Shown piece by piece: positions 54,001-60,000 of a stretch of 64,000 bases of DNA (the stretch's first letter is position 1; every line of letters begins with the position of its first letter). The DNA is from Ruditapes philippinarum (taxonomy: Eukaryota): positions 186,001 through 250,000 of the forward strand of contig NW_026853905.1 in the NCBI RefSeq assembly GCF_026571515.1, written 5' to 3'. Position numbers: made by a program.

Positions 54001-57000
54001 TTTAGCCTGTCACATGTCCAAAATTTTCTTGGCGATGAGGGGGACTCCGCCCCACTTCAAACCCCCCAAACAGAAGGGGGCTCATCCCCCTTCTGGCAAC
54101 CCCCTGATGTAACATTTGGATGGGGGACGGCGCCGAAAAAGTGGTCACTTTTTTAACAACATTTCTCAAACGAAAACCAGTGTTTGGGGCCTAAATAGGG
54201 CATTTCTTTACTGTTTGAGGCCTAAAAAGGGGGGGGGGGCAAAAAGCCGTCAAAACACGCTTATTTGAGGGAAAAGGTTAATTATTAATGTATGTTTTTT
54301 TAAATATGACTGATTATTCCATTATACCATTTTGAATATTTGACAAAAAACTTTTAAATTTTGCTTCATGTAGGGTGCCATGGTGCCCTTGGGTACTAGT
54401 TACTTATAGAGCATAAATAAATGAAATAGGCTTTCATTAGGCCTTTTTTAACTATGGTAGTCTTTATGTAGACTTTTTCCATCTAGAGTATTTCGTCATA
54501 CCTTTTTCATTTGATTATTTGTTAATGACATATTTATTTTGAATGTTTCATGATTTTTATGAATTTGTTTTGTTTTATTGTGAAAAATATTGTTGCTTGT
54601 TTTGATTACATCATGATCATGAAGTGAATTAGTTTGTTTTTTAAGCTATGAAATTTATATTGAAATTTCTCTCAGAATAAAATAAATCTGGTGTATGATC
54701 AGATAATTTTTGCTTCAGTTATTGTTGTATATTGTGCAGGTGGTTATCTCCCTTATGCTAATATGTTGTACATGCCAAAAATAATTTCATGTTCAAACAA
54801 GACCTGTTGCAAGGGATGGCACATTTGACTTTTTATGCTCCCAAAAGGGAGAGCATATAGTCGCCGCCTTGTCGTACCAATGGGTAACAGTAAATTCTCT
54901 TTGATCCTATTCATTCCATTTTTACTTGTGTGTCTTTTTCTAAGCCTTGTGTGACTAAAAATGGCTAAAAAGATCAAAGGAAAGCCACATAAGTACCATT
55001 TCGTAAGTATGTCCGTCCGTCTGTCCATTGTTGTCTTGTCCGGAGCATAACTTGAAAACCCTTGGAGATAATTTGTTTTAACTTCACACAGTGGCAGAAG
55101 GCATTGAGGTGGAGTGCAGTGACAAAGAACCATAACTCTATTATGCCCCATTTTTGAATTATCTTCCCTTTTTAGCTCGACTTTTCTATGAAAAGGGGAG
55201 CTATCCTACTCGCCCCGGCGTCGGCGTCGGCGTCACACCTTGGTTAAGTTTTTCGTACCACCCCACTTTATTTCAGAAGTATTACAAGTATGGCTTTGAA
55301 ACTTACCATACTTGTTCACCATCATAACCTCCATCTACAGACAAGAGTACATAACTCTGTCAAGGTTTTTGACAGAATTATGGCCCTTTTTTGACTTAGA
55401 AAGTGTATTGAGCTTGGTTAAGTTTTTTGTACCACCTCACTTTATTTCAAAACCATTGGAGGTATTGCTTTGAAACTGACCATACTTGTTTACCATCACG
55501 ACCTTCATCAACAGACAAGAGGACATAACTCTGTCAAGGTTTTTGACAGAAATTATGCCCCTTTTTGACTTAGAAAATACATTGAATATGGGTAAAATCC
55601 ACTTATTGCCTTAACCCTTTGAGATATTGCTTTGAAACTTTTAATGCTATTTCACATCATTACCCCCATCTGTACGCAAGAGAAGGTAACTCTGTCAAGG
55701 ATTTGTTTTAAAAATTAAGGCCTTTTATCGACTTAGAATTAAATTTATTTAAGGCTCAACTCAGTTTTTTTTTCTTTCTTACCAGCCCTCTTTTGACTTA
55801 AACATTTCAAAACTTTGCTGCAGTGTTCAAGGGTATCACACCAATTCAGTAAAATAATTTCACTAAAATATTTCTTAATGCTCATGGCCATTGTTCACTT
55901 TAAAAATACAGAGATTCTTGTATTGCCTTTTACTGCAAAAACTTTTTTTATTGGCAAGCAATAAAAAAGTCGAGCGCGCTGTCTTACGGACAGCTCTTGT
56001 ATAAAAATCTTGTCCGTGACATAACTCTAAAACTATCAGAGATATCAACATGAAACTTTGCTACTTTTAAGGTAGACAGGTCACAATGGGTAGATGGGCA
56101 GTGCACAAAAACTTTTAACTCTGCCTTGCCTAATTTTGGAGTAATTGCCCTTTGTTCATTTTTATGCTCCCCGAAAAATTTCGTGGGGAGCATATAGTCG
56201 GCGCCTTATCCGTCTGCCCGTCCGTCCGTCTGTTGTCTTGTCCGGAGCATAACTTGAAAACCCTTGGAGATAATGTGTTGAAACTTCATACAGTGGTAGA
56301 GGGCATTGAGTGGGGGTGCAGTGTCAAAGAATCATAACTCTATTTTGCCCGGTTTTTGAATTATCTCCCCTTATAGAAAAATCTTGTCCGGGGCATAACT
56401 CTAAAACTATAAGAGATATCAACATGAAATTTTGTAGGTGAATAGATCTCAATGGGTAGATGTGCAGTGCATAAGAACAATAACTCTTTTTTATCCTAAT
56501 TTGGAGTTATTGCCCTTTGTTAATTTTAACACTTTGAACTTTGTCCGGAACATAACTCTAAAACTATAAAGAGATATCAAGATGAAACATTGTAGGTAGA
56601 TAGATCTCATTGAGTAGAGGTGCAGTGCAAAAAACCATAATTCTGTTAAGCCTCATTTTGAATTATCTCCCCTTTTAAGAAAAAATCTTGTCCAGGAACA
56701 TAGCTGTAAAACTATAAGAGATATCAACATGAAACTTTGTAGGTAGATATATCTCAATGGGTAGATGTGCAGTGCACAAGAATCATAACTCTGCCATGCC
56801 TAATTCTGGAGTTATTGCCCTTTGTTTATTTTTACTTTTTGAAGTTGTCGGGGACATAACTCAGAAATCATAAGAGATATCATCAAGAAACTTTGTAGGT
56901 TGATAGATCACATTGATTAGAAGTGCAGTGCAAAGGCCAGTAACTCTGCCTTGAATAAAATTTTGGAATTATTGAACTTTTTCCAGGGACATAACTCTGA

Positions 57001-60000
57001 AACTACAAGAGGTGTACTTTCCTGTGTCCAAAACCTATTCGGGGAGCATCACCTGGCTCAAACCGGGCTCTTGTTATACTTTGAACTTTGTCCGGAACAT
57101 AACTCTAAGATTATAAAAGATATCAAAATGAAACTTTGTAGGTAGGTAGATCTCATTGGGTAGAAATGCAGTGCAAAAGAACCATAACTCTGTTTTGCCC
57201 CATTTTTGCATTATCTCCCCTTTCAGAAAAATCTTGTCCGGGACATTACTCTTAAACTGTAAGAGAATATCACCATGAAACTTTGCTACTTAGGTAGATA
57301 GGTGTCAATTGGTAGATGTGAAGTGCAAAAAACCATAACTCTGTTCATCTCCATTTTTGAATTACCTCCCCTTTTAGAAAAATCTTGTCCAGGACATTAT
57401 ATTAAAACTATCAGAGATATCAACATGAAACTTTATAGGTGGATAGATCTCAATAGGTAGATGTGCAGTGCACAAGAACCGTAACTCTGCCTTGCCTAAG
57501 TTATTGCCCTTTGTTTAGTTTTACACCTCGAACTTTGTCCGGGACTTAATTCAAAATTATAAGATATATCAACATGAAACTTTGTAGGTAGATAGATCTC
57601 AATAGGTAGATGTGCAGTGCACAAGAACCGTAACTCTGCCTTGCCTAAGTTATTGCCCTTTGTTTAGTTTTACACCTCTAACTTTGTCCGGGACTTAATT
57701 CAAAATTATAAGAGATATCAACATGAAACTTTGTAGGTAGATAGATCTTATTGGGTAGAAGTGCTGTGCAAAAGAACCATAACTCTGCTCTATCCCGTTT
57801 TTGAATTATCTCTCCTTTTAGAAAAAAACTTGTCAGGGACATAACTCTAAAACTATAAGAGATATCAACATGAAACTTTGTAGGAAGATAGATCTCATTT
57901 GGTAGATGTGCAGTGCACAAGAACAGCAACTCTGCCTTGCCTAACTTTGGACTTACTGCCCTTTGGTAATTTTTACATTTTGAACTTTGTCGGAGACTTA
58001 ACTCTGAAACCATAAACGGTATCAATAAGAAACTTTGTAGGTAGATAGATCTCATTGATTAGAAGTCCAGTGCAAAGAACAGTAACTCTGCCTTACCTAA
58101 TTTTGGAATTATTGCACTTTGAACGCTGTCCAGAGATATAACTTAACTACAAGAGGTGTACTTTCCTGTGTCCAAAACCTATTAGGGGAGCATCAGCCGG
58201 TTCAAACCGGGCTTTTGTTTATACTGGCTAGTAAATAACTCTTAACCAGGAAAATAATTTTATCATGAACATATTGTTTAAATAATATTAGTGGAAAATT
58301 TAAAGTGTCTGAACTGTATTGTACATCTGTGACATAGCATGAATGTTATTATTAAAAAATATATATTAATAATTATTGTATAACATTATTATTTATTGTA
58401 TTACAAACCTTCCATTATAGATTTATTCACTTCAAACTCAATACTGCAGAAACAGAGCTTAGCACAGCTGAGCTTGATATGCATGAAATATCATTATGAA
58501 ATAGCTGACAGAAAATCTATAGAGTATACTTAGCATAGTTTAGCGTGATAAAACTTAACATAATCACTGACAGAAAATTCAAAACAAAATCATAATTGGC
58601 ATTTAAATTATCATTTAATATTAATAACAGACAATGTCAAAAAATAATGAAAGAAATCAAGTAAAGGATTGATTGTCAGCTTTGCTTTTAAAGCTTGCAT
58701 TACCAAGTGAAATGGAATGTAACAGTTTTCTTAAAAAAATCCACTACTGACAATTGTTGTTCCAAAAATTAAACAAACTGATGTACATTTTAAATGTACC
58801 TGGAGCTATAATTATCACATTTCATATTTTCTTTAACCCTTCATTCTGCTGTCATGTCGTTATGTCATGTTTTAATTGTATTGAATTTATCATATATACT
58901 AGTCATTTGCATGTGCAATCAATTTTTAGACTGCTACAGGGTGAAAATAAGTTATATTGTTTAAGAATGAGTCTTTAGTTAGCACATTGTTTTATGACAT
59001 TAAGAACAAGCAGCTTTCTGATGGAATAATCCAAGTTGGTTCACTATTATAAACATCAGTATTGCACCAAGAGCTGACCCGGCCTGGGTAACTATACCAC
59101 ACCATAGAAGCGCCGATCTACCTCTCAGCCGAAGCACTGTTGCGATGCTAACCTTGGCAAATGACATCAGACCACAAAATAAAACAAACGCTATCACCTG
59201 TAAAAAACAAAAATATATACATGTATAATGAAGTTTTGATTATTATGATTTGGATTGATCTCCTAATAAGAAATATATGTACATGAAGACTTGAAATTTG
59301 TTTAAAAGATTTGTTGAGAATGAATTTGAATTATCTCTTAAAATGTTTGGTGCATTTTTATATCTACAAAGATTTTTCTAAAGACCTAATGATATTCCCA
59401 TCTCTCACAATGCTGTATTGTTCATGTTGCTTATATACTTTACACTACCATTGCTTCTTCAACTCTTGCAAATCTGATTTTTATCAGGTTCATATAAAAA
59501 ACAAAAAAAATTAACGCAAGCCTGCAAAGGATCACAGCTAACACTATTCATTAAGATGCATTCAGTAAATGGATTGAATATTTATCCCTTACTATAGTCC
59601 ATCTTTCAATGTAATATTTTTAGGGAAAATTAAAAAATACAGACTAAATACTAGACCAGTGCAGAACATGATCAGATGACACAGATCAATGAGCTGACTG
59701 TTATTGGTCTGAACTCACAGGTTGCATAGGCAGATTCAGTTCAATGCCACCAGCAGGGTAAACAATAATGTTAAATTTTGATTAAAATGACAGGCAGAAA
59801 ATCATAGTTTACTACTCACTATGGTAGCTGCACCGATATCTTCTCCTGCCATTGGTGGTGTTGGACTGCTGGCAGCTATGACCAGAAGATATATACCAAT
59901 ACAAAAACCAGTAATTGTTACCCCACCTATAGCACACATTGACAAAACTGGCAAGAAAAATGCCACAAGGCATGATAGTGGATTGGCTATATTTGATAAT

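What the first reader, a model, noticed from the sequence alone, without database searches (positions are those of the whole stretch)
54830..58219. Nested HINE complex: elements insert into T-tracts of their own satellite units
Seen: removing 55169-56000 rejoins ttatcttccc(tt) to ataaaaatcttgtcc, and removing 56159-57075 rejoins ttgccctttgttca(tttt) to atactttgaactttgtcc. Each restores a normal host unit. One insert is a foreign family and the other is the host's own family, which explains the two family-A 5' ends and two 3' ends. Both landed in consecutive units just 3' of the conserved ttat..ccctt box. Inference: the arrays act as landing pads, giving a route to satellite growth and mixing by self-insertion rather than only unequal crossover.
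Basis: partly seen in the sequence, partly recalled or inferred. Interest (0 to 1): 0.7.

Follow-up and report, generated by a model that had tools for sequence, protein, structure and literature searches.

The report
Transposons nested inside a satellite-carrying transposon
One satellite-carrying rolling-circle transposon (a HINE) has two more HINEs inserted into T-runs of its first two repeat units, which is a real but ordinary nested insertion and does not show that the repeats attract insertions.

Summary
Window 54830-58219 is one Helentron-type non-autonomous element (HINE), here "A-outer", carrying about 9 units of 146-157 bp. Two complete HINEs interrupt it.

- **B (55169-56000):** a foreign family. 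A second copy lies at 29961-30929 on the minus strand, 99.65% and 100% identical in the flanking blocks, with the same termini.
- **A-inner (56159-57075):** the host's own family, 87-90% identical to the host.

Cutting each insert out restores an in-phase repeat unit. The A-family end motifs occur exactly twice each, in the order 5'-5'-3'-3'. That order means nesting, not tandem duplication.

Both inserts sit in T-runs, carry no target duplication, share the host's orientation, and lie in units 1 and 2, 0 and 8 nt after the conserved TTAT..CCC box.

The "landing pad" inference is not supported by this window:
- T-run density in HINE DNA equals background (0.236 vs 0.255 per base).
- Two nested elements out of 8 gives P about 0.15-0.19.
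- The agreement in position within the unit gives P about 0.12-0.16.
- The other six elements lie beside no such box.

T-run targeting, elements inserted within other elements in oyster, and satellites arising from double insertion are all in print. This is an ordinary new instance of a known kind.

The parts
54830..58219 (+). A-outer: the complete host HINE, 3390 bp including both inserts and 1641 bp of its own. It runs from a 5' T-run + ATGCTCCC to GGGCTTTTGTT.
54830..55035 (+). A-outer left flank. Contains the T-run and the 5' subTIR/IR hairpin (54830-54868). About 136 nt (about 54871-55006) are absent from A-inner. A GTCC/GTCT microsatellite lies at about 55011-55026.
   Evidence: hairpin z -2.3; extra segment from the alignment; microsatellite read
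55036..55168 (+). Unit 1 (alpha type, first-unit variant), left part, ending in the box TTATCTTCCC.
55169..56000 (+). B: nested foreign-family HINE. Contains TTTTT + subTIR AGCTCGACTTTT with its IR hairpin; (GGCGTC)x3 at about 55217-55234; about 174-bp units from 55239; a variable segment at about 55740-55892; the 3' subTIR AAAAGTCGAGC; the palindrome GCTGTC..GACAGC; and the end CTCTTGT.
   Evidence: (I12)
56001..56009 (+). Unit 1, right part (ATAAAAATC), which completes the unit.
56010..56158 (+). Unit 2 (beta type), left part, ending ...GTAATTGCCCTTTGTTCA.
56159..57075 (+). A-inner: nested HINE of the host's own family. Left flank 56159-56237 with a 12-nt perfect subTIR pair (56164-56175 / 57038-57049). 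Five units (alpha-beta-alpha-beta-gamma) at 56238-56985. Right flank 56986-57075.
   Evidence: (I19)
57076..57087 (+). Unit 2, right part (ATACTTTGAACT), which completes the unit.
57088..58132 (+). The remaining seven units of A-outer (alpha, alpha, beta, beta, alpha, beta, gamma).
58133..58219 (+). A-outer right flank: a partial unit, the 3' subTIR GGGGAGCAT, the short palindrome CCGGTT..AACCGG, and the end CTTTTGTT.
29961..30929 (-). Second, un-nested copy of family B. It fixes the B termini and shows that B is young.

Best explanation
Three separate insertions of Helentron-type non-autonomous rolling-circle elements (HINEs) are stacked at one locus.

An A-family element first integrated into a T-run downstream of a riboflavin-transporter (SLC52) exon. 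Later a second A-family copy, about 10-13% diverged from the host, integrated into the T-run of the host's second repeat unit. A B-family copy, essentially identical to another B copy 25 kb away and therefore recent, integrated into the T-run of the first unit.

Each event follows the usual Helentron rule. A transposase supplied in trans moves the element bounded by its subterminal inverted repeats and 3' palindrome. The element joins into an oligo-T target without target-site duplication. The strand carrying the T's sets the orientation, which is why both inserts point the same way as the host.

The closeness of the two inserts, and their place next to the conserved box, is most simply a coincidence of T-run targeting together with the neutrality of insertions inside dead repeat DNA.

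Shown here: the boundaries, the termini, the restored empty sites, the family assignments and the relative youth of B. Inferred: the enzyme, the single-strand mechanism, the order of the two inner events, and the absence of special targeting.
For: - B termini are fixed by an independent copy, 99.65% over 572 nt and 100% over 108 nt.
- A ends occur twice each, in nested order.
- Units are restored in phase. There is positional correspondence between the two A copies: first unit with first unit 87%, last with last 82%.
- HINE anatomy is present. SubTIR pairs: 15 nt at 93% for B and 12 nt at 100% for A-inner. The 5' hairpins have z -4.2, -2.3 and -4.5. Microsatellites and tandem units are present.
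- All five elements with readable 5' ends start with a T-run and show no target duplication.
- T-run density in HINE DNA equals background, and the nesting and position statistics are not significant.
- Literature, passages read: HINEs and Cg_HINEs prefer T-rich/TT targets without duplication, and the number of terminal T's varies (PMC4067079; PMC7492417).
Against: - Two inserts in adjacent units, both within 8 columns 3' of the same conserved box and both in the host's orientation, have a joint post-hoc probability of roughly 0.04-0.05 (0.12-0.16 x 0.31). Mild targeting therefore cannot be excluded.
- The box TTATNNCCCYT is strikingly conserved across all five array families: 33 matches against 1.1 expected, with 31 of 33 inside HINE arrays. 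This hints at a function that could involve the transposase.
- No autonomous Helentron lies in the window. None of the 7 of 11 ORFs of at least 120 aa that were scanned matched a Rep, helicase or endonuclease family.
- Read support for the assembly could not be checked.
Confidence: 0.8

Rival explanations
1. The unit junction of HINE arrays (conserved box + T-run + following palindrome-like TTGTCCGG..ACA) is a preferred integration site for Helentron machinery. HINEs would then home into HINE arrays, and arrays would grow, mix families and form composite elements by self-insertion.
For: - Both inserts lie 0 and 8 nt 3' of the box in consecutive units.
- The box is conserved in every array family of the window and occurs in C. 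gigas CL8 arrays, where AGTTATGGCCCTT is found 211 times.
- One alpha-unit junction resembles the element's own 5' subTIR-loop-IR hairpin, with 1 of 500 shuffles reaching the score, and a second junction gives 10 of 500.
- Vojvoda Zeljko et al. (Discussion passage) suggest that multiple insertions could explain double arrays in two Cg_HINE elements.
Against: - n = 2, chosen post hoc.
- Nesting frequency P is 0.15-0.19. Phase coincidence P is 0.12-0.16.
- 8 of 10 unit junctions show no similarity to the 5' hairpin beyond shuffles.
- Six other HINE-like insertions in the window lie beside no box (my reading of the flanks).
- About 31 other box-bearing units carry no insert.
- Survivorship of neutral insertions inside repeats predicts nesting without any targeting.
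- An earlier test of whether satellite junctions cluster at conserved motifs in BIV160/Cg170 found no statistical support (PMC5139131, passages).
Confidence: 0.14
2. Assembly artefact: a chimeric join of repeat-containing reads or haplotypes created the apparent nesting.
For: The region is repeat-dense, and no read data were available to check it.
Against: - Mis-joins in repeats occur through homologous overlap. They would join unit to unit, not an exact element terminus to a T-run inside a unit.
- All four junctions coincide with element ends that are defined independently.
- Both empty sites are restored in phase.
Confidence: 0.03
3. The structure arose by recombination or rolling-circle multimerisation (unequal crossover, tandem element copies or read-through), not by insertion.
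For: Helitron-type elements are reported to form tandem, 3'-truncated multimers (PMC7492417 Introduction; PMC8268682 Discussion).
Against: - Multimers give the order 5'-3'-5'-3' or a loss of 3' ends. Here the order is 5'-5'-3'-3' with complete ends.
- The inner A copy is 10-13% diverged from the host, so it is not a local duplicate.
- B is an unrelated family with its own copy elsewhere.
Confidence: 0.03

Closest known systems
HINE / DINE-1-type non-autonomous Helentrons (Thomas, Vadnagara & Pritham 2014, PMC4067079; passages read)
   Same: - Subterminal inverted repeats.
- A 5' inverted repeat forming a hairpin.
- A microsatellite followed by central tandem repeats.
- A short 3' palindrome.
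- Terminal T-runs of variable length.
- Integration into T-rich/TT targets without target duplication.
   Different: The families here are unnamed. No autonomous partner is in the window. The 3' palindromes of family A are short, and that of A-inner is weak.
Cg_HINE_1 to _11 of Crassostrea gigas (Vojvoda Zeljko et al. 2020, PMC7492417; Results read in full; Discussion passages; array spreadsheet searched)
   Same: - The same modular plan.
- GTCC-type microsatellite.
- Units of 147-175 bp.
- TT/oligo-T targets.
- Insertions into repetitive DNA and other transposons are reported.
- A box shared with CL8 units.
   Different: 0 of 5 long unit motifs from this window occur in the CL1-13 array table, so these are other families or another species. 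The word 'nested' occurs 0 times in that paper, and it analyses no within-unit position of insertions.
Complex 'shuffled' Helitron/satellite loci of C. gigas (described in the review PMC12628747, section 7 read; the primary paper, Satovic-Vuksic & Plohl 2021, DNA 1:84, is not held)
   Same: [quoted passage not shown] Different arrays occur within one element.
   Different: I know this description only from the review's summary. It states no base-level junctions and no preference within the unit.
Double insertion of transposable elements as a substrate for satellites (McGurk & Barbash 2018, PMC5932611; abstract read)
   Same: The idea that insertion-site preference makes elements land in or beside their own kind, and that this seeds tandem arrays.
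   Different: That work concerns Drosophila elements forming head-to-tail dimers. Here the insert is nested inside an existing internal array, and no expansion is seen.
pearl / DTC84 tandem-repeat elements of bivalves (Satovic & Plohl 2013, PMC3879986; passages read)
   Same: Core repeats plus an ACGG/GTCC-type microsatellite plus flanks with inverted repeats. DTC84 has a conserved palindrome TTGTCCGGACAA at the repeat junction, and A units begin TTGTCCGG(G/A)(A/G)CA.
   Different: Only 4 of 14 A-unit starts match that palindrome within 2 mismatches without a gap. Overall sequence relatedness was not tested.

Membership tests
HINE (non-autonomous Helentron) | 11-15 bp subterminal inverted repeats near both ends | tested here: met
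   B: 15 nt at 93% (55175-55189 / 55961-55975). A-inner: 12 nt at 100% (56164-56175 / 57038-57049). A-outer: ATGCTCCC / GGGAGCAT seen directly in the sequence; it is not among the 25 pairs listed.
HINE (non-autonomous Helentron) | Inverted repeat next to the 5' subTIR (DINE-1-type 5' hairpin) | tested here: met
   DNA folds: A-inner -10.6 kcal/mol, z -4.17; A-outer -6.3, z -2.34; B -8.1, z -4.49.
HINE (non-autonomous Helentron) | Microsatellite followed by central tandem repeats, all in one orientation | tested here: met
   GTCC/GTCT runs and (GGCGTC)x3 read. Arrays of period 147-157 (A) and 174 (B).
HINE (non-autonomous Helentron) | Short palindrome (stem-loop) near the 3' end | tested here: inconclusive
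   B has a 6-bp stem (-5.7 kcal/mol) and A-outer a 5-bp stem (-4.9), but 25 and 19 of 200 shuffles fold as well. The A-inner stem is weak (-2.7; 120 of 200 shuffles fold as well).
HINE (non-autonomous Helentron) | Integration into a T-rich/TT target with no target-site duplication | tested here: met
   Paralogous empty sites within the array. T-runs at every 5' end, and CTCTTGT(T) followed by host sequence at the 3' ends.
HINE (non-autonomous Helentron) | An autonomous Helentron partner (Rep-helicase-endonuclease) sharing the ends | not testable with these tools
   None in the window. 7 of 11 ORFs of at least 120 aa were scanned and gave no Rep, helicase or endonuclease family. No eukaryotic genome collection is on hand.
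Cg_HINE_1-11 (C. gigas families) | Unit sequence belongs to array clusters CL1-CL13 | tested here: not met
   0 of 5 unit motifs of 18-29 nt were found in the supplementary array table. Of 5 shorter motifs, only the shared box was found: AGTTATGGCCCTT 211 times and AGTTATTGCCCTT 4 times, in CL8. Caveat: cells of that table are cut at 400 characters.
Canonical Helitron | 5' TC and 3' CTRR ends, with insertion between A and T | tested here: not met
   The ends are T-run + AGCTCG or ATGCTCC at the 5' side and CTCTTGT(T) at the 3' side. Targets are T-runs. The definition is taken from PMC4067079.
pearl / DTC84-like elements | Conserved palindrome TTGTCCGGACAA at the repeat junction | tested here: inconclusive
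   4 of 14 A-unit starts match within 2 mismatches. The window holds 5 matches against 1.5 expected, and 2 of 100 shuffles reach 5.

The most novel reading that the evidence does not exclude
The conserved box plus T-run at the junction of HINE central repeats is a preferred docking and nicking site for Helentron transposase. HINEs would then home into each other's arrays in a fixed orientation. This would create composite elements that can be mobilised from the outer ends, and it would explain both double-array HINEs and the mixing of satellite families in bivalve genomes.
Probability: 0.12. Interest if true: 0.5.

Novelty: new member of a known kind. Interest (0 to 1): 0.2.

Why it matters
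As it stands, this is a clean, base-resolved example of HINE-in-HINE nesting. It is useful for annotation: repeat finders would split this locus into five pieces and mis-count elements.

It also gives paralogous empty sites that confirm T-run targeting without target duplication for two unnamed families.

It would matter more only if a genome-wide census showed box-adjacent homing. That would give a mechanism for composite arrays and for the spread and mixing of satellites in bivalve genomes.

Tried and rejected
- **Similarity of the A 5' hairpin to the unit junction.** Only 2 of 10 junctions reach 10 or fewer of 500 shuffles. Kept as a weak lead and not used.
- **Assignment to C. gigas clusters through the paper's spreadsheet.** No unit match. 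Only the short shared box was found.
- **DTC84 junction palindrome.** Partial resemblance only.
- **Enrichment tests within the window.** Not significant.
- **Search for an autonomous Helentron or other transposase among long ORFs.** None found. The hits were host genes: SLC52, a CCDC97-like domain and a weak LURAP match. Each ORF was scanned on its own.
- **Literature on nested HINEs or a within-unit preference.** 'Nested' occurs 0 times in PMC7492417, PMC11136912, PMC10048060 and PMC3879986. Only the review PMC12628747 mentions elements inserted within elements.
- **Not held or not readable.** The primary paper (Satovic-Vuksic & Plohl 2021) is not held. The PDF supplement of PMC7492417 (insertion-site figure S2, subTIR table S2) cannot be read here and may bear on target preference.
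- **No suitable sequence collection.** The collections on hand are bacterial, phage, plasmid or E. coli, so no search outside the window was made.
- **Nature of the window.** It shows no sign of being human: bivalve-type HINE arrays, about 31% G+C, no N.
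Full report
**What is there.**
The window is AT-rich animal DNA of 29-37% G+C with no N. It holds several short arrays of 147-175-bp tandem repeats.

Each array is flanked by the modules that define Helentron-associated interspersed elements (HINEs):
- a 5' T-run;
- a subterminal inverted repeat with a nearby complementary repeat;
- a short microsatellite;
- the array;
- a 3' subterminal repeat;
- a short palindrome;
- an end of the form CTCTTGT(T).

These were read. 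The definition comes from PMC4067079 (passages) and PMC7492417 (Results read in full).

I count eight HINE-like elements, plus one 5'-truncated remnant:
- 18065-19312;
- 29961-30929 (minus strand);
- about 38150-39116;
- 40073-40335;
- 41335-42775;
- the three elements of the finding;
- the remnant at about 50190-50283.

**Check of the observation.**
The span 54830-58219 begins TTTTTATGCTCCC and ends GGGCTTTTGTT.

Inside it, 56159-57075 begins TTTTTATGCTCCCC and ends GGGCTCTTGTT. The 5' motif GAGCATATAGTCG matches exactly at only two places, 54851 and 56188. The 3' motif matches at only two places, 57059 and 58203. The order of ends is therefore 5'-5'-3'-3'.

The other insert, 55169-56000, has different ends (TTTTTAGCTCGAC ... 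CAGCTCTTGT). A second copy lies at 29961-30929 on the other strand. The two copies are 99.65% identical over 572 nt and 100% over 108 nt. Homology starts and stops at the same bases on both sides. The two copies differ only in an internal segment.

The host's units were located by their TTGTCC starts. When the two interrupted units are rebuilt without the inserts, both align over their full length and in phase with intact units.
- Unit 1 is 87% identical to the first unit of the inner A copy and 58-71% to all others.
- Unit 2 is 78-79% identical to the beta-type units.

The only ambiguity is how many of the flanking T's belong to element or host. This is a known property of these elements (PMC4067079).

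**What it is.**
The locus is a nested stack of three HINEs.

The inner A copy is a separate family member, not a local duplicate:
- its left flank matches the host at 39 of 45 aligned bases;
- its first unit matches at 118 of 133;
- its right flank matches at 83 of 92;
- first and last units correspond position by position.

The anatomy fits HINE. SubTIR pairs are 15 nt at 93% (B) and 12 nt at 100% (A-inner). The 5' hairpins are far more stable than shuffles, with z of -4.2, -2.3 and -4.5. The 3' stems are short and not statistically distinctive.

The elements do not fit canonical Helitrons. They lack the TC...CTRR ends and do not sit in an A|T target.

Their units are not in the C. gigas clusters CL1-13. 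None of 5 long motifs was found in that paper's array table. A short box is shared with cluster CL8.

Neither insert is flanked by a target duplication. Both lie in the host's orientation, as expected if the T-bearing strand sets the orientation.

**How it most likely arose.**
Three ordinary Helentron-type integrations into oligo-T targets are the simplest account. B is the most recent, given its near-identity to a sister copy.

The transposase must act in trans. Of the 11 ORFs of at least 120 aa, 7 were scanned one at a time. They gave only host-gene families:
- SLC52 riboflavin transporter at 59805-61250 on the minus strand;
- a CCDC97-like domain;
- a weak LURAP match.

The four ORFs left out lie in tandem repeats or inside the HINEs.

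**Is the array a landing pad?**
- **T-run density.** TT/AA density is 0.236 per base in HINE host DNA and 0.255 elsewhere. HINE host DNA holds 9.8-11% of T-run sites.
- **Frequency of nesting.** With 8 elements, at least 2 landing in earlier HINE DNA has P of 0.15-0.19. That is before allowing for the locus having been picked because it looked odd.
- **Position within the unit.** The two insertion points are 8 alignment columns apart. Two random T-run sites of the host array are that close in phase with P of 0.12-0.16. They fall in the same or neighbouring units with P of 0.31.
- **Other elements.** As I read their 5' flanks, the other six elements lie next to no such box.

One point does favour a function for the box. 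TTATNNCCCYT occurs 33 times against 1.1 expected. Of these, 31 lie inside HINE arrays, always in element orientation, and in all five array families. None of those other units carries an insert.

I also tested whether the unit junction mimics the element's own 5' hairpin. One alpha junction does (1 of 500 shuffles reach its score) and a second does weakly (10 of 500). Eight of ten junctions do not.

Nesting is also what neutral survival of insertions inside dead repeats predicts.

**Comparison with what is known.**
- The same paper suggests that multiple insertions may explain double arrays (Discussion passage).
[quoted passage not shown] Its primary source is not held.
- The idea that insertion preference puts elements into or next to their own kind and seeds satellites is in McGurk & Barbash 2018 (abstract).
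- An earlier test of whether satellite junctions cluster at conserved motifs in the related BIV160/Cg170 family found no statistical support (PMC5139131).
- I found no paper that maps nested HINE insertions onto the repeat unit. These searches cover only the held library.

**Verdict.**

This is a new instance of a known kind, and interest is low. The boldest reading that the evidence does not exclude is box-adjacent homing of Helentron machinery. I put it at about 0.12.

**What stayed unchecked.**
- Read support for the assembly.
- Any genome-wide count.
- The PDF supplement of PMC7492417.
- The primary 2021 paper on complex loci.

Noticed in passing
window 18278-19110, 30209-30719, 38352-39051, 41564-42705, 55378-57660: A short box, TTATNNCCCYT, is shared by the repeat units of all five array-bearing HINE families, which are otherwise dissimilar. 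It occurs 33 times against 1.1 expected, with 31 of 33 inside arrays and always in element orientation. The same box occurs in C. gigas CL8 arrays. Its function is unknown.
   Followed up: partly
window 29961-30929 (-) and 55169-56000 (+): Two B copies 25 kb apart are 99.65-100% identical in their flanking blocks. They carry different internal segments: about 153 nt at 55740-55892 against about 290 nt at 30069-30358, the latter including a fourth degenerate unit. B was recently active, and its interior is being remodelled.
   Followed up: partly
window about 54871-55006: The left flank of A-outer holds about 136 nt between the 5' hairpin and the GTCC microsatellite that A-inner lacks. It has no HINE ends. 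It may be filler DNA or a variable spacer.
   Followed up: no
window about 50190-50283: A solitary A-like 3' end: part of a unit, GGGGGAGCATC, then CAGGCTCTTGTT followed by TATAAAGC. No 5' part is present, so this is a 5'-truncated HINE remnant.
   Followed up: partly
window 57076-57080 and 58221-58225: The five bases ATACT follow the T's at the 3' ends of both A-inner and A-outer. In the inner case they belong to the restored host unit. The match is probably chance, but 3' read-through was not excluded.
   Followed up: no
window 59805-61250 (-), 7789-8592 (-): Host-gene exons. A 482-aa open frame matches the SLC52 riboflavin transporter family (E 1e-129). A 268-aa frame holds a CCDC97-like C-terminal domain (E 3e-21). 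The HINE stack lies about 1.6 kb beyond the 3' side of the SLC52 frame.
   Followed up: partly
window 38150-39116 and 40073-40335: One HINE-like array (173-bp units, 5.2 copies) has a 5' hairpin but no recognisable 3' flank. A 263-bp decayed one-unit relative of the element at 18065 is also present.
   Followed up: no
window 4799-5384: A 30-bp tandem repeat of 19 copies, unrelated to the HINEs. It creates long open frames on both strands.
   Followed up: no
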